Source of the DNA: an uncultured virus (IMG/VR IMGVR_UViG_3300041964_000089) | Lineage: Duplodnaviria; Heunggongvirae; Uroviricota; Caudoviricetes | Direction: 5' to 3' (one strand) | IMG/VR virus record: IMGVR_UViG_3300041964_000089 | DNA length: 64,000 nt | Shown here: positions 831 to 27,513 of the stretch, in pieces | Layout: each line of letters begins with the position of its first letter | Numbering within the stretch: the first letter of the stretch is position 1 | The notes under the pieces: generated by a model | What the model was told of the DNA's origin: nothing | The model's input: only the letters and a program-made list of their open reading frames with translations | Databases searched by the model: none | Program-made: the position numbers and the translations under genes

Positions 831-2966
831 TTACTTCGGGCAAGTTACACTTTGTCTTGCAAGCTGGTGTTGCTGAGCCATTTTATCTAGGTAGCCGATC
901 GCAATTTCTTTTGAGAAAAATGGATGACCAGTGCCAGTCTGACTCCAAATAGACCATGCCCACCAGCGCCCATCTTGGCCTTGTTTGATACGACCAATTC
1001 CGTTGTAATTTTCTGTTTCTCGCGCAAAACAGGCATACTGTTGGTACATTCTGGGATTGAAAGTGCGTCCGGCTTCAATAGCTGCTCTGATTTGTTGATG
1101 CCGCACGTTGGGGTGCTTAGTTTCTGACGCTGTGAATCCGGCATTGATAACAATGAAAATTTCATCGTTGCGGATGTAGAATTGGCGGATTGCACCCTTC
1201 TTGCCTACGATCGTCCCTTTGATCGGCGTCTGCCAGTGAATAGTCCCTTCTGGCTCGATTTCGGTGACTGGCTGCTCGTCCAAATTTTCGTCATGAGTGG
1301 GCAGAATAGATGGATCAAAAGCTGTGATTTTGAACAGCTTGAGCGTGTCGGCTTTCAGTTCTGTCATTTTCTCTAATTGAACTGCGGGGAAAAGTTGAGG
1401 TTCAGACTTGGGGCGATGGTAATACTCAATAGCTTTGTCGATTTTTTCAAGGTGCAGCAACGTGATCACTTCATCTTCGCTTCCCATTGCTGTTCGCTCA
1501 ACTGCTAGCTGAGCCTTGAGTTGGCATTCGGACAAATATGCTAAGTCGTAAAATTGCTTGTCAAGCGCACTTTCTTTGACCATTGCACTTATAAAATTGT
1601 CATCCTGTTTTGCTTGCCGTATTGGCGCGGTGGAAACAGGAGTGGAAGCCGTCAGAGTGGAGGTTGCAGAGATCCGACCGCGACCGTTGTCGCCACGATT
1701 TGGGGGTGCGTCGTCGTTGGTTGTAGTATTTGTTTTTTTCGGTTGGGTAATGGGTAATAAATCAGGTAGAGATTTTTGGTACTCCCCGATCTCTGTCATC
1801 ATTTCAAAGTACCACCAACTCGGTTGGGGATTTTTAGCGAAATTTTTAGCTTCATCAAGGACAGATCGTATGCGTTCGGCAATCGCATGAATGCTGTCGT
1901 GCATTGTTACGTTAGTCCCAATATCGGCTTGGCAACCCTCGGTAGCCCAGACATATTTTGCTCGTGGAGCGTAATTCCAGTAGTCTTTACCATTCTCCAA
2001 CTCGTGGAAAATAAACGGACACTCTGCGGCGATAATGAACTCCAAGCATTCTGTTGCGTCCAATTTGCTAGCGTTTTTAATAACTTCGGCGTAAATTGCC
2101 GATGGGTTGATAAGTTGCAGGTAAGCGTCAAATTGCCAGCATTCAATAGTTGGAAGTTGCTCGCCACCATAAACTTTGTAACCTTGCTGCGCCAGCCAAA
2201 ATTGCTCTTTATATTCGTTGGCGCGATCGCGGGTAGTGCTAGCAATACAGCACGGTACTGACTGCTTTTCGGAGAAAGCGACATATTTAGGCAGAGGCAA
2301 ATTGAAGAAAAAAGGCATTGCGCGTTTGGCTGGGGCAATCGGCGCTTCAACCTGAATTTTACTAGGGGTCACGGTAGCAGAAACTGGAATTTCAGCAGAA
2401 GCAATCAATTCAGTCATCTCGGTTTCAAGATCAGCTATTTCTTGGTAACAATCGGTCTCAGCTTCCCAGTGGCCGCAAGTCACGGCGTCGGTCAGTCCGC
2501 AGCAGTAGCGATCGCCGTCAATGTGACGAGCCAAGGGGCAGGTGGCGCAAGTGAGCGGGGTTGCGATTTGTTCCGTTTCAACTACGGGCTGCGGTTGTGC
2601 AGCAATGATGCGGTTTTCGTAGTCCCAGCGCGTGCGGGATAATGCTGTTGCTTTCAAACCGAGGCTGGTGTGCAGTTTTTGGATTTGGTTCCAAGTTAAG
2701 GTTTTGAGCGTTTCAGCGGTGTGTGCCGATGCGCTGGCTGCTGGTGCTGCAACTTCTCCAACCACCCATTCTTCTGTGTGGCGATCGCGGCAGTTCGGGA
2801 AAGTCACGATCAAGCAGGTGCGGCCGTCTTTCAGGATTTCCTTGCCGACCACGCAGGCGATCGGAGCGAACGGTTTGCGGATTACATCTCCCACTTGGCA
2901 TTTAGGTGTGGCATCTTGCCAGATTACTTGGGCGGGGGTTTGGGGTTTGAGGGCTGTGAGTGTCAT
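831..2966 (-). CDS. Large multi-domain hypothetical early protein
   Basis: Long ORF; ATG at 2966 (MTLTALK) preferred as start; contains a CxxC...CC...C cluster. Confidence 0.7.
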   Translation of the reverse strand: MTLTALKPQTPAQVIWQDATPKCQVGDVIRKPFAPIACVVGKEILKDGRTCLIVTFPNCRDRHTEEWVVGEVAAPAASASAHTAETLKTLTWNQIQKLHTSLGLKATALSRTRWDYENRIIAAQPQPVVETEQIATPLTCATCPLARHIDGDRYCCGLTDAVTCGHWEAETDCYQEIADLETEMTELIASAEIPVSATVTPSKIQVEAPIAPAKRAMPFFFNLPLPKYVAFSEKQSVPCCIASTTRDRANEYKEQFWLAQQGYKVYGGEQLPTIECWQFDAYLQLINPSAIYAEVIKNASKLDATECLEFIIAAECPFIFHELENGKDYWNYAPRAKYVWATEGCQADIGTNVTMHDSIHAIAERIRSVLDEAKNFAKNPQPSWWYFEMMTEIGEYQKSLPDLLPITQPKKTNTTTNDDAPPNRGDNGRGRISATSTLTASTPVSTAPIRQAKQDDNFISAMVKESALDKQFYDLAYLSECQLKAQLAVERTAMGSEDEVITLLHLEKIDKAIEYYHRPKSEPQLFPAVQLEKMTELKADTLKLFKITAFDPSILPTHDENLDEQPVTEIEPEGTIHWQTPIKGTIVGKKGAIRQFYIRNDEIFIVINAGFTASETKHPNVRHQQIRAAIEAGRTFNPRMYQQYACFARETENYNGIGRIKQGQDGRWWAWSIWSQTGTGHPFFSKEIAIGYLDKMAQQHQLARQSVTCPK

Positions 2967-8027: not shown

Positions 8028-8103
8028 GATATTTGGTGTAAGCAATAAATAGAAAGCAATTTGGGTAATTTTACAGTATCCGAATTTTTTTGGTCATTGC
8101 CAC

Positions 8104-8139
8104 TTGCAATTGCACTTGCAATTGCAAGTGCAATTGCAA
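8104..8139. repeat. Perfect 36-bp palindrome built from TTGCAA units
   Basis: TTGCAATTGCACTTGCAA|TTGCAAGTGCAATTGCAA between convergent genes. Confidence 0.85.
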
Positions 8140-8192
8140 TTGCTAATGACTAATGTGTCAGATAATTGATATTTACGATCGGGTTAACCGGG

Positions 8193-8627
8193 CTAGATGA
8201 TGTACGCGCCACTAGGCAGTTCGATCGCCCCCTCAACCCGCAACTCATCCAACTCGCGAGTTACAACCAAACTCTGCAACTTTTCCGCAAGACTTTCGGC
8301 TTCGGGAGTGCTTTGCGTTTCCAAATAAGTCAAGAGTTCGGCCGCGAGGGGGGACTGAGCTAGCAGGCGATCGCTCTCGCCATGATTGATTACGTATGCC
8401 CTCACCCACTTCTTGATTAACTCGTTCCGCTCGGTGGCCGAAGGAATCAATATTTTTAAGGCGATCGCGTCTCCCGGTGGAAGGCTCACATTAAATTGTT
8501 CCTTTTTTTGATGCGTGGGTAGAGGTTTTCTCCCGGCGCCTGTCCGGGAACCCCCGCGAGGCTTTTTTTCTTTACTTACTGGGCTTTGCAGATTTTCTGA
8601 CATTTCTTTTTGTTTTTTGCTTGACAC
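8193..8627 (-). CDS. Putative DNA-binding protein (RGGxRxGAGRKP motif)
   Basis: KPRGGSRTGAGRKP followed by an RHH-like segment. Confidence 0.6.
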   Translation of the reverse strand: MSSKKQKEMSENLQSPVSKEKKPRGGSRTGAGRKPLPTHQKKEQFNVSLPPGDAIALKILIPSATERNELIKKWVRAYVINHGESDRLLAQSPLAAELLTYLETQSTPEAESLAEKLQSLVVTRELDELRVEGAIELPSGAYII

Positions 8628-9942: not shown

Positions 9943-10236
9943 TTAACCGCCTTGTGAAGAGCTAGATTGTTTGATCGCTCCCCAGCCTTCTTCGAGTATT
10001 TGGTAGGCAGTGCTTTCCGGATCGAGCACTGCCTCTTGAATCTGGCGCGCACCAGCAACAGCAATCTCAGAAACTTTGTGGCTTGCACTGCATTGCTGCT
10101 GAACCGCGAGTTGAACGTGATTAATGATCGCCACCGCGTGCAGCGGGCTTAGTTCTACTGCCACGGTTTCCGCTCCCTGCATTTTATCCAACTCCTGTGC
10201 GTATTTTTTGCGATCAACTGCCATATCAATATTCAA
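9943..10236 (-). CDS. Hypothetical protein
   Basis: About 95-aa ORF at the end of the leftward block. Confidence 0.55.
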   Translation of the reverse strand: MNIDMAVDRKKYAQELDKMQGAETVAVELSPLHAVAIINHVQLAVQQQCSASHKVSEIAVAGARQIQEAVLDPESTAYQILEEGWGAIKQSSSSQGG

Positions 10237-10327
10237 CTTTTAACGGAACACTTTTAATTCCTATTCCCCGTGATTGATCACGTAAACCCGCACCCCCGGT
10301 CTGCAAAGCGTCATTAACAATATCAGC

Positions 10328-10537
10328 TTAATTATTGCTAAACCAAATTAAAAAATCTTCTACACTGTTAAATTTTTTAGTGAGTGGATGATCGTTCAGA
10401 TTGTTGAATAATGCGTCAAAAAAACTACGAATGAACCATTGGTCGTCTGGCGACCATGCACTTAAGTCCGCTTTTGGATGCTGCGATGTATTTGGTAGTT
10501 CGGTTGATTCATTGTGCATTATTTTGTTATTATTCAA
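10328..10537 (-). CDS. Small protein with NDHPLTxKFN domain (paralog of 28199-28672)
   Basis: WFIRSFFDALFNNLNDHPLTKKFNSVEDFLIWF. Confidence 0.65.
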   Translation of the reverse strand: MNNNKIMHNESTELPNTSQHPKADLSAWSPDDQWFIRSFFDALFNNLNDHPLTKKFNSVEDFLIWFSNN

Positions 10538-10594
10538 ATAATGTAAATTATTGTTTGGTTTTGCGTGTAAATTTTAAGTCAAAAAGGACGTTGA

Positions 10595-10705
10595 TGGACG
10601 TTGATCGAATCGAACGATCAAGTTTTCCGGTCAACAGTAGTTGCGTCACGGGGTCTCAACTCCCATCTTTAACAGTGCATCTCCGGGACTGGTCCCGCCA
10701 CGTCC
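10595..10705 (-). ncRNA. tRNA-like RNA with expanded central domain
   Basis: GGACGT/ACGTCC-A acceptor stem, perfect T-arm GATCG-TTCGATT-CGATC, non-canonical middle. Confidence 0.55.
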
Positions 10706-10710
10706 AAAAA

Positions 10711-10777
10711 GCGACTATTGCTTACACGCAATTTCACTGGGTCAAAATTCAGCGCCAGTGCTGCCCCGGTTCGTCGC
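10711..10777 (-). ncRNA. Candidate multibranch structured RNA
   Basis: GCGAC/GTCGC closing stem with CACTGG/CCAGTG and ATTGC/GCAAT arms. Confidence 0.35.
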
Positions 10778-10810
10778 TAATCTGATAATAACCTATTGGC
10801 AACCAGAAAG

Positions 10811-11104
10811 TTAACGTACTGTGCTAGCTGTGCTAGCTGTGCTAGGTGGAAACAAATCGCGGTAACTCATCCCCACACGTTCGCAAGACACTGCAAAGTT
10901 GGCTAAATTCCTGACTTCTTGAATTTTTCGCAATATTGTTGTTAATTCTGCGGGGTTTGTAATAATGCCAGCTAGCGCTTTTGCATATGTGATCGAAGCT
11001 TCATTGACTATTGCGTGCAGTTCTTGCTCGGCGTCATTTTTGGGTGGATGGTAAGAAAATAAATTTTCAAGTTTTTCTAAAAACTCAGTATTTTCTATTG
11101 GCAT
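10811..11104 (-). CDS. Acb2/Tad1-like helical-hairpin protein (putative nucleotide-signal sponge)
   Basis: LENLFSYHPP...E.....RKIQEVRNLANFAV resembles the F.YH.P...KLEEA.MWAN.AIA family pattern. Confidence 0.6.
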   Translation of the reverse strand: MPIENTEFLEKLENLFSYHPPKNDAEQELHAIVNEASITYAKALAGIITNPAELTTILRKIQEVRNLANFAVSCERVGMSYRDLFPPSTASTASTVR

Positions 11105-11295
11105 ACGATTGTGATCTCTCTATTTAGACATTAAAATTATAATTGATTATGTCTTGATCGCCCCCAAATTTCCTGAATTATTGAGGTCGTAAACGTGCTA
11201 CAATAAAAGCACTAAAAAGTCTAGACCGCAAAAAATTAAATTTTTGCATCTTAGATGTATAGCCCAAAGCCATTACCAAGCAAAGTTGTAATCTG

Positions 11296-11381
11296 TGGGG
11301 ATGGTGGGGCTCGAATCCACAAAACCCTGGCAGGTTGTCCGGTTAGCAGCCGGATGCGTTTTCCAGTTCCGCCACATTCCC
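11296..11381 (-). tRNA. tRNA with GCT (Ser) anticodon on a Leu-type body
   Basis: GGGAATG..CATCCCC-A; anticodon arm TCCGG CTGCTAA CCGGA; long variable arm; mismatches at 4:69 and 53:61. Confidence 0.75.
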
Positions 11382-11456
11382 AAGTAAAATGCAGCGGCGA
11401 TACTTTGAATTAGGACCTCAAAGCATCGTCGCTTATTCTACATTTTTTGCAAAATG

Positions 11457-11966
11457 TCATTTATTGTAAAAATGTTCAACTATTCTAACTGGAAGCGCAC
11501 AAGTACTAGAAAGTTTACAGGAAACTTCTGCCGCCTCTTTAGCTGTTTTGCCTAACAACAACGCTGCTTGTGCAAAATCACCGCCACTGCCGATCGCATC
11601 AAAATTTTCAACTTTGTAAACATCAATTCCACCGTAAACACGAAACAACTGGTCTTGAAACGCAATTAAAAATTGAGACGTTGGCATTCCAACATTATAT
11701 TTCGACTGACAAAGGTTAACATACTCTATTAAAAATTCAATCATTCCATCTTCACAAGCACTTTTTGGAACATGAGTTTTAGCAAAAATTCTCATTAAAG
11801 TATTAAACAAACACTGTCCTGAATGACCTACTGTCAAATCGTTTTGCTGCCAAAGTTTAGAGACAAGCGTATTGTTATCAGTAATAATTGTGTTATCTGC
11901 TGTCATTAAAGAATCACGAGCAAAAACAATTTTGTTGTCGGTTTTAATGGCTGCAATTACTGTCAT
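11457..11966 (-). CDS. HslV/proteasome-beta-like Ntn protease
   Basis: N-terminal (M)T, ARDS, SK and AIGSG motifs. Confidence 0.75.
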   Translation of the reverse strand: MTVIAAIKTDNKIVFARDSLMTADNTIITDNNTLVSKLWQQNDLTVGHSGQCLFNTLMRIFAKTHVPKSACEDGMIEFLIEYVNLCQSKYNVGMPTSQFLIAFQDQLFRVYGGIDVYKVENFDAIGSGGDFAQAALLLGKTAKEAAEVSCKLSSTCALPVRIVEHFYNK

Positions 11967-12016: not shown

Positions 12017-12406
12017 TTAAAATATTTTTACAATTAAAATAATAATTAAACCAATCAACGCGATCGCACCCAACACATAACAACTGTTGAGCGCCCAGCA
12101 TTTATCCAACAAGCAAGCTTTGGCATACGGCACAACCCACCACTCAAAATCAAACCACTCTGTACCACCATCAATTTTACCCCGATACTTTCTCACCAAT
12201 TCAAACTGTTTGTGCAGGGACTGTTCTACAAACAGCATATTGAACGTCCAAGCAACTTGCAACAGTTTTAGCTGAGTGCCGTAGGATTGTTTGAGGTATC
12301 GCAGTCGGGTTGCAGGCGATCGGGATAAGCCTATTTTGTAAAGTTGCGCGGCGGGGTCGTAAATTAGGTAGACGTATCCTGGAACGGCGTGATTGTGTTT
12401 TTGCAT
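12017..12406 (-). CDS. GIY-YIG (T5orf172/Mug113-like) protein with C-terminal TM helix
   Basis: GYVYLI...YKIGLS..P..RL...E..LH..F...GGTEWF. Confidence 0.8.
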   Translation of the reverse strand: MQKHNHAVPGYVYLIYDPAAQLYKIGLSRSPATRLRYLKQSYGTQLKLLQVAWTFNMLFVEQSLHKQFELVRKYRGKIDGGTEWFDFEWWVVPYAKACLLDKCWALNSCYVLGAIALIGLIIILIVKIF

Positions 12407-25992: not shown

Positions 25993-26280
25993 ATGACAAT
26001 GAATTTAGAAATTGAACAATTAACCCGCCGCGTCGAAACACTCGAAACAATTATTAGAAACTATGGGTTAATGCAAGAATTTCAACCGCTGAAACTGGCG
26101 GCTGTGGCGCTTAAGCAATCTGAGGCAAAACTTAGAAAAGCTGTGAATGCTGCTAGGTTAAACCCGCGCAGCCATCAAGCTAAAATTGGGGTGCATTTCA
26201 ATTTTAACGGCAACCGAATATTGATTAATGTAGTGGCGTGGGAGAGGGATATTAAAGCAATCCCTCCTGAAAAAGTTTAG
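25993..26280 (+). CDS. Probable excisionase/recombination directionality factor
   Basis: Small basic HTH-like protein convergent on and overlapping the integrase stop. Confidence 0.5.
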   Translation: MTMNLEIEQLTRRVETLETIIRNYGLMQEFQPLKLAAVALKQSEAKLRKAVNAARLNPRSHQAKIGVHFNFNGNRILINVVAWERDIKAIPPEKV

Positions 26281-27347
26281 TGTCGGGTTGCCCGCTTCCA
26301 AGCTTCCTCAAAATCGCGCTTGCTGATATGTTGGTGATATTTGTCAAAATGAATTGTGAGTGAATGCCCCATCCACCGAGCAACAATTGCCGGATCGATT
26401 CCGAGCACAGATCCGCGAACGGCGTAAGCATCGCGCAAGTGGTAAGCGGTCAAATCAATACTTTGTGCCCGCAAACCGGGAGTAATTTTTGCACCAATGT
26501 TTTGGTTGGTTCTGCCTTCAGTTTGCGTGTTTGGTAAAACCCCATCCCAAAGTTGCCATTCCGATCGCCACTTTGGCATCAGCGGCAAAATCAACCGCTC
26601 CTTAGTTTTAGTGTTTGGCAACACTCGCAGCCAGCCTGGTTCGGCGTTTAACTCAGAGCAATCAAGTTTGAAAATTTCGTGAGGTCTAAGGCCGTAAGCG
26701 GCCAGCATTCCAAAAACCCACTGCCAAGCGGGGTTGCCGATCGATTCGCGCATCGCTTCAATTTCCAAATCTGACGGCAAATCCCGCTGAATTTTTGCCC
26801 CGCACCCCGCAGCTAACTCTGAAAATTTATTCTCAATTCCTGCAAATCTGGCGATCGCCCCGTAAGCAAAGCACAATTTTTGCCTGGTGCGGGTTCCCGG
26901 CTGCGATTTTAAAATTTCAGTTTTTAGCAATTCTTCTGTCAGCGGTTTGCTCGGATCGAGCCGATCAAACGCTTCTTGATACGAGGCTTTCCACGTCGAG
27001 ATTTTTGCCAGCGATCGCTCCCGCGACTCCCAATAGTTTTGCTCAAACCGAGCTACCCACTCACCTACAGTCTCCGCAGGTTTGTGCTTCCCTTTGAGCC
27101 AAGGGGTCCAGTCAAACTTTTCTCGGATTAGCTGCCCTTCAATTTCCAGGGCTTTAGCTTTGGCAAATCTTAATCCTTCAGTATGAGCGCCGTACCCGGT
27201 ACTCAATTCGTAGCGTTTGGGCTTGTCCCCGTCGCCCGGTTTTGGCGGCAAAGTCGCTCGCAGATACAGCCGATCGCCTTTCTGTCGGATTTGCACGCGA
27301 TCGAGCGCAGCGTTTGCTTTCCCCAGTGCTTCCCCAAAATTGTGCAT
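26277..27347 (-). CDS. int: Tyrosine integrase
   Basis: YGLRPHE, KTK, YHLRDAYA, MGHS...H..KY; N-terminal arm-binding region LYLRATLPPKPG. Confidence 0.92.
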   Translation of the reverse strand: MHNFGEALGKANAALDRVQIRQKGDRLYLRATLPPKPGDGDKPKRYELSTGYGAHTEGLRFAKAKALEIEGQLIREKFDWTPWLKGKHKPAETVGEWVARFEQNYWESRERSLAKISTWKASYQEAFDRLDPSKPLTEELLKTEILKSQPGTRTRQKLCFAYGAIARFAGIENKFSELAAGCGAKIQRDLPSDLEIEAMRESIGNPAWQWVFGMLAAYGLRPHEIFKLDCSELNAEPGWLRVLPNTKTKERLILPLMPKWRSEWQLWDGVLPNTQTEGRTNQNIGAKITPGLRAQSIDLTAYHLRDAYAVRGSVLGIDPAIVARWMGHSLTIHFDKYHQHISKRDFEEAWKRATRH

Positions 27348-27441
27348 AAGATATATCAAAATAACCAAGATATCTTGGTATATCTTATTCAACGGGTAAA
27401 AGTAAAATTAGTCAAAAACTTGTTGAAAGCCTTACTTAGAA

Positions 27442-27513
27442 CGGAGAGGGAGGGATTTGAACCCTCGAAGGATGTTAACACCCTTAACAGATTAGCAATC
27501 TGCCGCTTTCGAC
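27442..27513 (-). other. attP core: 3' part of tRNA-Ser(GCT)
   Basis: GTCGAAAGCGGCAGATTGCTAATCTGTT...GAGGGTTCAAATCCCTCCCTCTCCG; lacks the 5' acceptor/D strand; directly upstream of int. Confidence 0.85.

What the first reader, a model, noticed from the sequence alone, without database searches (positions are those of the whole stretch)
10586..10705. tRNA mimic with acceptor and T arms around a pseudoknot-like insert
Seen on the minus strand: GGACGT...ACGTCC-A acceptor stem and a perfect T arm (GATCG TTCGATT CGATC), with no normal D arm. A CCGG/CCGG helix encloses about 50 nt that can form an H-type pseudoknot (ATGGG/CCCGT; loop AGTTG pairs with CAACT) and holds two Asn-like CTGTTRA motifs. 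The last 10 nt are tandemly duplicated before a T run. The layout recalls the tRNA-like domains of tmRNA or Y RNA, but it is about 110 nt and lacks G3:U70. Inference: an undescribed phage ncRNA, such as a decoy for anticodon nucleases or uncharged-tRNA sensors.
Basis: partly seen in the sequence, partly recalled or inferred. Interest (0 to 1): 0.75.

Follow-up and report, generated by a model that had tools for sequence, protein, structure and literature searches.

The report
Insert-bearing tRNA look-alike in cyanophages
A small RNA gene shared by three viruses of soil-crust cyanobacteria looks like an asparagine tRNA with 45 extra bases in its anticodon loop, so it probably mimics a tRNA without decoding; similar phage RNAs of unknown job have been seen before.

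Summary
The element is real. Two homologues, 89% and 95% identical over the 110 nt, lie in a 110-kb IMG/VR phage contig (G522) and a 5.8-kb metagenome contig (L157). Their flanks are unrelated or rearranged.

It is the 3' domain of a ~190-nt cassette: a -10-like box, a ~75-nt structured leader, U5, the tRNA-like domain, then a U run. The leader has a hairpin with 3 compensatory pairs and a closing helix with 1. The 6-bp acceptor helix (U-A / U.G / C-G at one pair) and the invariant T arm can stack to 12 bp.

Default ARAGORN and Rfam do not call it. Deleting exactly nt 24-68 gives a default tRNA-Asn(GUU) call in 3 of 3 sequences. It is the only Asn-giving deletion of 2,875 tried per sequence.

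My reading: a tRNA-Asn-derived, non-decoding tRNA look-alike with a 45-nt insert at the 5' edge of the anticodon loop, in a transferable sRNA cassette of temperate Microcoleaceae-type cyanophages. Expression and function are untested. The decoy idea stays open. The kind is already known (Lak phage 'enigmatic introns', T4 RNA C/D).

The parts
10785..10814 (-). Promoter-like site TTAACT-18 nt-TATTAT. Its -10 box ends where homology with L157 begins.
   Evidence: 9 of 12 matches. L157 has TTGACA-18-TAAAAT (11 of 12, with TG) at the same relative place. G522 has TAAAAT there, seen by eye. This is a prediction only.
10706..10779 (-). Structured leader domain (D1). The closing helix is AGCGAC (10778-10773) with GUCGCU (10715-10710). 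Hairpin P0 is AUUGC-GUGUAA-GCAAU (10732-10717). The domain ends in U5 (10710-10706).
   Evidence: RNAalifold consensus. P0 has 3 pairs changed on both sides and the closing helix has 1. The same fold is the single-sequence MFE in all three (z = -1.22, -2.72, -3.97).
10596..10705 (-).
   Evidence: Homologues at L157 1472-1581 (+) and L145 1472-1581 (-) align without gaps. They differ from the window at 6 and 12 positions. CM R1 scores 141 bits in the window and 138 bits in G522.
10700..10705 (-). Acceptor 5' strand GGACGU. It pairs with 10601-10596.
   Evidence: 6 of 6 pairs are standard in 3 of 3 sequences. Pair 6-105 is U-A, U.G or C-G.
10596..10601 (-). Acceptor 3' strand ACGUCC.
   Evidence: Homology with both relatives stops exactly at 10596.
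10603..10619 (-). T arm: GAUCG stem with UUCGAUU loop. With U86-A104 it becomes a 6-bp stem that abuts the acceptor, giving a 12-bp stack.
   Evidence: Invariant in 3 of 3 sequences. The 6 + 6 bp stack is in the RNAalifold consensus.
10638..10682 (-). 45-nt insert (RNA nt 24-68) between the CCGG 5' strand and the CUGUUGA loop. It holds the hairpin AUGGG/CCCGU (10666-10662 with 10652-10648) and the first CUGUUAA motif (10675-10669).
   Evidence: ARAGORN 'intron'. Deleting exactly this segment gives a default tRNA-Asn call in 3 of 3 sequences. The hairpin is 100% paired with two one-sided changes. 9 of the 14 variable columns lie here.
10627..10637 (-). CUGUUGA (an Asn-type anticodon loop sequence) followed by CCGG, the 3' strand of the CCGG/CCGG helix. 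Its 5' strand is at 10686-10683.
   Evidence: Invariant in 3 of 3 sequences. It is the anticodon arm in the ARAGORN fold.
10581..10595 (-). Second copy of AUCAACGUCC (10595-10586) and the U run (10585-10581). The duplication is specific to this phage.
   Evidence: In the relatives ACGUCC is followed directly by UUUUU (G522) or CUUUU (L157).

Best explanation
The element is the 3' domain of a small, self-contained phage RNA gene. The gene reads: promoter, structured leader of about 75 nt, U5, 110-nt tRNA look-alike, U run. The look-alike descends from a tRNA-Asn(GUU) gene that took up 45 nt at the 5' edge of its anticodon loop.

What is shown:
- The sequence features are present and are conserved in three phage-type sequences.
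- The unit sits in different surroundings in each.
- The changes in the helices preserve pairing.
- A tRNA-Asn body appears once the insert is removed.

What is inferred:
- The cassette is transcribed from its own -10 box.
- The leader folds first and ties up GUCGCU, which was the old acceptor 5' strand.
- GGACGU then pairs with ACGUCC, and with the T stem this forms a 12-bp acceptor/T stack with a standard T loop.
- That stack is the shape read by RNase P, 3'-end trimming enzymes and the CCA-adding enzyme. RNase P would cut between U-1 and G1, releasing a leader RNA that ends in a helix plus U5, and a stable tRNA-shaped RNA of about 110 nt.
- The 52 nt between the CCGG strands fold into an arm instead of a 7-nt loop, so the RNA cannot read codons.

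Its most likely role is as a tRNA mimic that occupies a tRNA-binding factor, or as a processing and stabilising handle for the leader. Which of these applies is unknown.
For: Conservation: two homologues exist, in G522 (109,786-nt IMG/VR contig) and in L157 (1 of 14 pattern hits). They align to the 110 nt without gaps, with 12 and 6 differences. DNA homology ends at the acceptor's last base in both.

Surroundings:
- In G522 nothing else in window 9000-13000 matches.
- In L157 the 191-nt unit sits inside the 3' end of a homologue of window ORF 8193-8627, and the displaced ORF end lies downstream of it.

Structure:
- The acceptor is 100% paired, with U-A / U.G / C-G at pair 6-105.
- Hairpin 40-44/54-58 is 100% paired, with two one-sided changes.
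- Leader hairpin P0 has 3 double changes and the leader closing helix has 1.
- G.U pairs (U41.G57, G42.U56, U6.G105) would be A.C mismatches on the other strand or in DNA. This favours a minus-strand RNA.
- In all three full-length predicted transcripts the free MFE contains the leader closing helix and the GGACGU acceptor. The ARAGORN cloverleaf is 14 to 20 kcal/mol worse.

tRNA-Asn ancestry:
- Default ARAGORN calls tRNA-Asn after deletion of nt 24-68 in 3 of 3.
- That deletion is the only Asn-giving one of 2,875 deletions per sequence.

Transcription unit: -10-like boxes lie at the 5' edge of homology and a U run follows the 3' end in all three.
Against: - There are only three sequences and they are related. 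Four of the window's differences lie on one branch, so position 6 'covaries' equally with 105 and with 36. The 36-48 pair rests on one lineage.
- Most pairs of the tRNA-like domain never vary.
- Single-sequence folds of the domain are not unusually stable: z = -0.48, -0.25 and -1.97.
- The high identity could partly reflect recent transfer and not selection.
- One D-hairpin pair is broken in G522. The middle of the RNA has at least three mutually exclusive pairings.
- The acceptor has only 6 pairs plus a G.A.
- There is no evidence that it is transcribed, cut or CCA-tailed.
- The promoter sites are consensus matches only. One search found none in G522.
Confidence: 0.6

Rival explanations
1. 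A dead tRNA-Asn pseudogene. An insertion killed a phage tRNA-Asn gene, and the remnant travels passively within a stretch of DNA recently exchanged between phages. It has no function of its own.
For: The body is tRNA-Asn-like only after removal of 45 nt. The cloverleaf acceptor is poor, with 66.7% of cells paired. The identity of 89-95% could simply be recent transfer. Fold z-scores of the tRNA-like domain are unremarkable. No further homologues were found in the cyanobacterial genome searches or in related phages.
Against: The unit is kept in three phages in different surroundings, with the same exact 3' end, a -10-like box and a U run. All changes in the acceptor and in hairpin 40-44/54-58 preserve pairing. 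The adjoining leader shows 4 double-compensated pairs, which neutral decay does not predict.
Confidence: 0.14
2. A working tRNA-Asn gene with a true 45-nt intron. The intron would be removed by an unknown phage or host activity, as suspected for the 'enigmatic introns' of Lak megaphage tRNAs.
For: Removing exactly nt 24-68 restores a cloverleaf that default ARAGORN accepts, with a 7-nt CUGUUGA loop, in 3 of 3 sequences. The tRNA-body differences fall mostly in what would be the D loop. Phage tRNAs with conserved short introns are in print (PMC6784885, passages read).
Against: - The cloverleaf's acceptor has two constant mismatches and a third in the window.
- Its 5' strand pairs better, and with covariation, to the start of the leader.
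- The fold is 14-20 kcal/mol less stable than the alternative.
- The insert lies between positions 31 and 32, not 37 and 38.
- 45 nt is far too short for a group I intron, and no ribozyme or intron family matches.
- Position 37 would be G in the loop retained.
- No splicing endonuclease domain was seen among the 70 ORFs scanned against Pfam.
Confidence: 0.08
3. A DNA-level element and not an RNA: an attachment or recombination site, the end of a mobile element, or an origin with iterons.
For: The unit sits at different loci. G522 has 3.5 tandem 15-nt repeats just upstream. The window has a 10-nt tandem duplication at the 3' edge. An IS605-type TnpB gene lies 53 nt away in L157. tRNA-shaped genes are common integrase targets, and this phage itself integrates at a tRNA-Ser.
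Against: G.U pairs in conserved helices would be mismatches in DNA hairpins or on the other strand. There is a single copy per genome. None was found in the cyanobacterial genomes searched, unlike a transposable repeat. The TnpB element's inferred end is separate from the unit. The -10 box and U run fit a transcription unit.
Confidence: 0.07
4. A protein-coding gene on the opposite (+) strand.
For: One antisense frame is open across the whole unit in all three sequences: 109, 81 and 96 aa ORFs.
Against: 11 of the 14 variable columns fall on codon positions 1 or 2 and change the residue. The start codons lie in non-homologous flanks, and the window's 10-nt duplication shifts the frame upstream of the conserved part. 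No Pfam family matches (best E = 0.092).
Confidence: 0.03

Closest known systems
tRNA genes with 'enigmatic', highly conserved introns in Lak megaphages (Devoto et al. 2019, PMC6784885; passages read)
   Same: These are phage genes shaped like tRNAs and interrupted by short conserved inserts. Bacterial tRNA finders miss them, no splicing route is known, and the insert is kept across related phages.
   Different: Lak cases were found with eukaryote-mode tRNAscan in 540-kb Prevotella phages. Here the insert is at the 31/32 edge of the loop. The cloverleaf acceptor is weak and a better alternative acceptor exists. The gene also has its own promoter-like box and a covarying leader. I did not see their Supplementary Table 6.
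Bacteriophage T4 RNA C and RNA D
   Same: They are small phage RNAs of unknown function (PMC9697503, passage read: 'RNAs of yet unknown functions', late RNAs). That they lie in the T4 tRNA cluster and have tRNA-like ends is my recollection, not a call.
   Different: No sequence or model was compared here. The host and phage type differ. Nothing is known of an Asn-type anticodon remnant in T4 RNA C or D.
tRNA-like domain of tmRNA
   Same: Both have an acceptor stem plus T arm, with the anticodon arm replaced by a larger insert closed by a helix.
   Different: The 3-70 pair is A-U, not G-U. The RNA is 110 nt with no tag reading frame. ARAGORN tmRNA mode and Rfam find nothing.
tRNA-like processing handles: mascRNA at the MALAT1 3' end and t-elements (PMC8457004, search listing and abstract only)
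   Same: A tRNA-shaped module lies directly 3' of another structured RNA. RNase P cleavage at its 5' end would create the upstream RNA's 3' end.
   Different: Those are eukaryotic or organellar. Cleavage here is only inferred.
Bacterial Y RNA YrlA (PMC4201824, search listing and abstract only)
   Same: It is a non-coding RNA that mimics a tRNA and also occurs in phages.
   Different: As I recall, the RNA ends in YrlA form the protein-binding stem and the acceptor-like stem is closed. Here the ends form the acceptor. No Rfam match was found, and no Ro-type protein was seen among the ORFs scanned.
Canonical bacterial tRNA-Asn(GUU), e.g. that of Microcoleus genome G002 (L192)
   Same: The CGG-CUGUU.A-CCG anticodon arm core, the T arm, and a D loop with GG in the ARAGORN fold.
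   Different: There is a 45-nt insert, G rather than A 3' of GUU in the retained loop, and a poor cloverleaf acceptor. By eye it has no close identity to the host gene, so it is not a recent copy of it.

Membership tests
tRNA (Rfam RF00005 / ARAGORN default) | Scores as tRNA with standard detectors | tested here: not met
   The Rfam tRNA model gives no match at E <= 10 on the element in the window or in L157 and L145. Default ARAGORN calls nothing in 3 of 3 sequences.
tRNA (Rfam RF00005 / ARAGORN default) | 7-nt anticodon loop on a 5-bp stem | tested here: not met
   52 nt lie between the CCGG strands. A 7-nt loop appears only after in-silico removal of nt 24-68.
tRNA (Rfam RF00005 / ARAGORN default) | T arm: 5-bp stem with a UUCRANY loop, stacked on the acceptor stem (12 bp in all) | tested here: met
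   GAUCG-UUCGAUU-CGAUC is invariant in 3 of 3 sequences. A 6 + 6 bp stack is in the consensus fold.
tRNA (Rfam RF00005 / ARAGORN default) | 7-bp acceptor stem | tested here: inconclusive
   GGACGU/ACGUCC gives 6 standard pairs in 3 of 3 sequences, then G7.A104. The alternative ARAGORN acceptor is only 66.7% paired.
Intron-bearing phage tRNA (Lak-type 'enigmatic intron') | Removing one internal segment restores a standard tRNA call, and the insert is conserved among relatives | tested here: met
   Deleting nt 24-68 gives a default tRNA-Asn(GTT) call in 3 of 3 sequences. It is the only Asn-giving deletion of 2,875 per sequence. The insert is present in all three.
Intron-bearing phage tRNA (Lak-type 'enigmatic intron') | The insert is spliced out of the RNA | not testable with these tools
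   No RNA run is listed for this sequence.
Group I intron in a bacterial tRNA | Catalytic core of about 200 nt or more that matches the group I model | tested here: not met
   The insert is 45 nt, and no intron or ribozyme family reaches E <= 10 on it.
Archaeal bulge-helix-bulge intron | Two 3-nt bulges on opposite strands separated by a 4-bp helix at the splice sites | tested here: inconclusive
   In the consensus fold the two ARAGORN junctions lie in unpaired stretches separated by a 3-bp helix, but with unpaired bases opposite them, so this is not a clean motif. No splicing endonuclease domain was seen among the ORFs scanned.
tmRNA | G3:U70, a tag reading frame and detection by ARAGORN tmRNA mode | tested here: not met
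   The 3-70 pair is A-U in 3 of 3 sequences. ARAGORN finds no tmRNA (at an 80% threshold). Rfam finds none.
Y RNA / YrlA | Rfam match and a Ro (TROVE) protein partner | tested here: not met
   No Rfam match. No TROVE domain was found among the 70 ORFs scanned in the window, L147 and L157. Small ORFs and the rest of G522 were not scanned.
Phage 'moron' (self-contained transcription unit at variable loci) | Own promoter and terminator, and presence at different places in related genomes | tested here: met
   -10-like boxes sit at the 5' edge and a U run follows the 3' end. These are predictions only. The unit's locus in L157 differs from that in the window.
T4 RNA C / RNA D | Sequence or structural likeness to the T4 RNAs | not tested

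The most novel reading that the evidence does not exclude
The RNA is a purpose-built tRNA-Asn decoy. It would be matured like a tRNA, and its long arm displays two copies of the Asn anticodon-loop sequence (ACUGUURA). These would soak up a host factor that reads U33-G34-U35. Candidates are a GUN-specific anticodon nuclease used as phage defence, or the queuine-inserting tRNA-guanine transglycosylase. The leader would act as a folding switch that decides between the old cloverleaf and the mimic fold.
Probability: 0.12. Interest if true: 0.8.

Novelty: new variant of a known kind. Interest (0 to 1): 0.5.

Why it matters
Phages carry many tRNA-shaped genes that cannot decode, and none has an assigned job. 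This case is better defined than most for four reasons:
- It has a clear ancestry (tRNA-Asn plus a 45-nt insert).
- It is an exact unit that moves between phages, with its own predicted promoter and U run.
- It has a covarying leader next to it.
- It has an identifiable host group, Microcoleaceae of soil crusts.

That makes it a tractable candidate for asking what such mimics do. They could act as decoys for tRNA-targeting defences, as handles for RNA processing, or as something else. If it turns out to be spliced, it would point to an unknown tRNA-splicing route in bacteria.

Tried and rejected
Searches that found nothing or only unrelated sequence:
- BLAST of 10300-11500 against 50,697 phage records: no match.
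- The nearest held record, G001, stops near window 5300 and lacks the region.
- Exact or gapped patterns in viral contigs gave no hits or unrelated ones. These included tRNAs with other inserts and plain hairpins.
- A 5' 20-mer found nothing in genome contigs.
- A 23-mer that is identical in two of the three members (L157 differs at one base, position 80) found nothing in metagenome contigs. That collection therefore does not hold, or does not show, those two records.
- A looser three-motif pattern found L157 among 14 hits and only G522 among 19 viral hits.
- BLAST in 5 named cyanobacterial genomes, a 401-genome sample of the phylum, 144 genomes of the family and a 401-genome sample of the order gave nothing real. 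The samples may overlap. Six short hits of 23-34 nt were found, and those I looked at lie in unrelated sequence.
- Covariance model R1 found no further copy in the window. It found none in G001, G809, G810 or G811, and only the known copy in G522.
- Earlier-findings look-ups by place and by sequence were empty.

Expression: no RNA holder is listed for this stretch, so expression could not be examined.

My own errors:
- From I inferred that the unlisted differences lay only at the ends of the match. That was wrong: differences at RNA positions 6, 12 and 13 were simply not listed.
- My first two patterns for the host tRNA-Asn used a wrong gap and found none. The corrected pattern worked.

Ideas considered and dropped:
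- Homology of the neighbouring ORFs between the window and G522: no alignment for two pairs. Only the T5orf172 proteins are related.
- The TnpB guide RNA as an explanation of the element: the inferred end of that insertion element lies elsewhere.
- A small self-cleaving ribozyme in the insert: no Rfam match.

Full report
OBSERVATION. On the minus strand the window reads, from 10705 down to 10581:
- GGACGU (10705-10700), then a G-rich stretch
- CCGG (10686-10683)
- 52 nt that include CUGUUAA (10675-10669), AUGGG (10666-10662), CCCGU (10652-10648) and CUGUUGA (10637-10631)
- CCGG (10630-10627)
- seven bases, then the hairpin GAUCG-UUCGAUU-CGAUC (10619-10603)
- AACGUCC (10602-10596)
- a second copy of AUCAACGUCC (10595-10586), then UUUUU

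All items in the finding are therefore present at the stated coordinates. ARAGORN and Rfam call only a tRNA-Ser(GCU) at 11295-11381. Even at E <= 10 no Rfam family touches the element. Its single-sequence fold is not unusually stable (z = -0.49).

THE GENOME. The window is a phage.
- It has a terminase, a portal, a podophage fibre domain, a lysozyme, a primase-helicase, and GIY-YIG, Bro-N and T5orf172 genes.
- The cyanobacterial palindrome GCGATCGC occurs 22 times against 0.68 expected.
- The nearest held record, G001, is an IMG/VR 'provirus' that is 98-100% identical to parts of the window.
- G001 leaves the window's sequence at 27434, directly after a 3' fragment of a tRNA-Ser(GCU) gene.
- Part of G001's flank beyond that point matches many of the 144 Microcoleaceae genomes searched at up to 97% identity. 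It often matches several times per genome, so it may be a repeat.
- The public runs that hold the region are soil-crust metagenomes: 5 runs from 2 studies.

So this is a temperate phage of a Microcoleaceae-type cyanobacterium that integrates at a tRNA-Ser gene.

HOMOLOGUES. Laying contigs of four runs on 10200-11500 showed a contig of higher depth (32.5 against about 5.5). It matches only 10596-10717 and has unlike sequence on both sides. Several exact patterns failed. A 19-mer then found this sequence in an IMG/VR contig of 109,786 nt (G522). In G522 nothing else in window 9000-13000 matches. A three-motif pattern found a third copy in a 5.8-kb metagenome contig (L157; 1 of 14 hits).

The three 110-nt sequences align without gaps. 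L157 differs from the window at 6 positions and G522 at 12, which makes 14 variable columns. Nine of the 14 lie in nt 24-68. No copy was found in:
- the phage records
- four other viral records searched with a covariance model, G001, G809, G810 and G811
- elsewhere in the window
- 5 + 401 + 144 + 401 cyanobacterial genomes, in possibly overlapping samples

THE UNIT IS LARGER THAN THE FINDING AND IT MOVES.
- Homology with L157 spans 191 nt (10596-10786, 92.7%) and stops at the acceptor's last base.
- In L157 these 191 nt sit inside the 3' end of a homologue of window ORF 8193-8627. The displaced last codons of that ORF lie just downstream, followed by an IS605-type TnpB gene.
- In the window the unit lies 2 kb away from that ORF, between ORFs 10811-11104 and 10328-10537.
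- At the 5' edge of homology each genome has a -10-like box. The window has TTAACT-18-TATTAT. L157 has TTGACA-18-TAAAAT, 11 of 12 matches. G522 has TAAAAT, seen by eye. The scan tool found no full promoter in G522.
- At the 3' edge ACGUCC is followed by UUUUU (G522), by CUUUU (L157), or in the window by the duplicated 10 nt and then UUUUU.

These are the marks of a self-contained transcription unit. They are predicted, not shown.

STRUCTURE. I counted pairs on a three-way alignment.
Pair 6-105 reads U-A, U.G or C-G.
- The T arm never varies.
- Hairpin 40-44/54-58 stays paired through two one-sided changes.

RNAalifold on the whole unit splits it into two domains.
- The leader is closed by AGCRAC with GUYGCU (G-C to A-U in G522). 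It contains a hairpin whose stem is AUUGC/GCAAU in the window and ACCUC/GAGGU in G522, which is three double changes.
- After U5 comes the tRNA-like domain. It has a 6-bp acceptor directly stacked on a 6-bp T stem, 12 bp in all as in a tRNA, and a long irregular arm.

The G.U pairs in these helices would be mismatches on the other strand, which fits a minus-strand RNA. The limits are plain. There are three related sequences. Four of the window's changes lie on one branch, so position 6 'covaries' as well with 36 as with 105. The middle of the RNA has several exclusive pairings. Fold z-scores of the 110 nt are -0.48, -0.25 and -1.97. The leader does better, at -1.22, -2.72 and -3.97.

ANCESTRY.
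- With introns allowed and the threshold lowered to 90%, ARAGORN calls a tRNA-Asn(GTT) with a 45-nt intron in 3 of 3 sequences. It makes a call in 4 of 1,200 shuffles.
- After in-silico removal of nt 24-68, default ARAGORN calls tRNA-Asn in 3 of 3.
- Of 2,875 deletions of 20-65 nt per sequence, this is the only one that gives an Asn call. L157 also gives three tRNA-Phe calls that I take to be spurious.

That cloverleaf starts 11-12 nt upstream. It uses AGUCGCU as the acceptor 5' strand and puts GGACGU in the D arm. Its acceptor is only 66.7% paired. Its 5' strand is the one that pairs, with covariation, to the start of the leader. In the full predicted transcripts it is 14-20 kcal/mol less stable than the leader-plus-GGACGU arrangement.

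I read this as history. A tRNA-Asn gene took up 45 nt at the 31/32 edge of its anticodon loop. The RNA now folds differently but keeps the acceptor/T half. The anticodon-arm core resembles that of the Microcoleus tRNA-Asn, but the genes are not close copies (by eye).

MECHANISM (inferred). See the best explanation. In short, the transcript comes from its own promoter and the leader folds first. The 12-bp acceptor/T stack is the substrate shape for RNase P, 3' trimming and CCA addition (established knowledge of these enzymes). The products would be a leader RNA ending in helix plus U5 and a ~110-nt tRNA mimic that cannot decode. What the mimic binds is unknown. Nothing here tests that.

RIVALS. 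I considered four: a passive pseudogene, a truly spliced tRNA-Asn, a DNA-level site, and an antisense protein. An antisense frame is open in all three sequences. However, 11 of 14 variable columns hit codon positions 1-2, the start codons lie outside the conserved block, and no family matches.

WHAT IS KNOWN.
- Lak megaphages carry tRNAs with conserved 'enigmatic' introns (PMC6784885, passages).
- T4 RNA C and D are small phage RNAs still without a function (PMC9697503, passage).
- Earlier notes of this scan list several anticodon-less tRNA look-alikes in phages. These are leads, not evidence.
- My four literature searches for phage tRNA-like decoys, phage tRNA inserts and cyanophage tRNA-like RNAs returned nothing matching this element.

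I therefore rate it a new variant of a known but unexplained kind. What is new here is the Asn ancestry, the exact insert, the covarying leader and the transferable cassette.

VERDICT. The element is real and conserved. It is tRNA-Asn-derived and most likely non-decoding. Its function is open. Interest 0.5.

Noticed in passing
window 27434-27510 (-), with ORF 26277-27392 (-) beside it; window 11295-11381 (-): The phage attachment site is a 3' fragment of a tRNA-Ser(GCU) gene, and provirus record G001 diverges from the window right after it. The phage also carries a complete but different tRNA-Ser(GCU). This pairing recalls 'tRNA-dependent lysogeny' (PMC10865867, abstract read). The adjacent 371-aa ORF has no Pfam match.
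   Followed up: partly
window 11191-11433: The phage tRNA-Ser gene and about 150 nt of its flanks are matched, with about 9% differences, by contigs of much higher depth in the same runs. The match is absent from G522. It may be a host-derived island.
   Followed up: no
L157 581-647 (-): A type II hammerhead ribozyme scores 47.9 bits against a gathering score of 37. It lies about 0.8 kb from the RNA cassette in the related phage contig.
   Followed up: no
L157 1634-2839 (-): An IS605-type TnpB gene (OrfB_IS605 plus the Cas12f1-like TNB domain) is inserted next to the cassette. Its last codons run into sequence homologous to window 8178-8230.
   Followed up: partly
window 12017-12406 (-) and L147 12487-12948 (-): T5orf172-domain proteins (37% identical, E = 4e-14) lie 1.3 kb and 2.9 kb upstream of the cassette, on the same strand, in the window and in G522. 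They are the only related neighbours and could be a nuclease gene that helps the region spread.
   Followed up: partly
L008 / L009 1501-1623 (353-kb viral contig with terminal repeats, G811): Another tRNA-shaped gene with an insert of roughly 50 nt after the anticodon-stem region was picked up by chance with an acceptor/T-loop pattern. It is unrelated in sequence to this element.
   Followed up: no
L191 273-2330 (Microcoleus genome G002): An array of 21 tRNA genes lies within 2 kb, including one call with a four-base anticodon. This is a cyanobacterial tRNA array.
   Followed up: no
window 10826-10857 (-); L145 about 1625-1690 (-); window 8100-8150 (-): Short tandem repeats lie near the cassette. 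AGCACAGCU occurs three times at the end of ORF 10811-11104. A 15-nt unit (AGCAACGAAUCGGGGC) occurs about 3.5 times in the G522 leader against about one copy in the window. GCAAUU/GCAAGU-type hexamer repeats lie downstream of ORF 8193-8627.
   Followed up: no
L147 10745-11338 (+): A 3'-5' exoribonuclease (Rv2179c-like domain, E = 4e-9) is encoded 1.1 kb from the cassette in G522.
   Followed up: no
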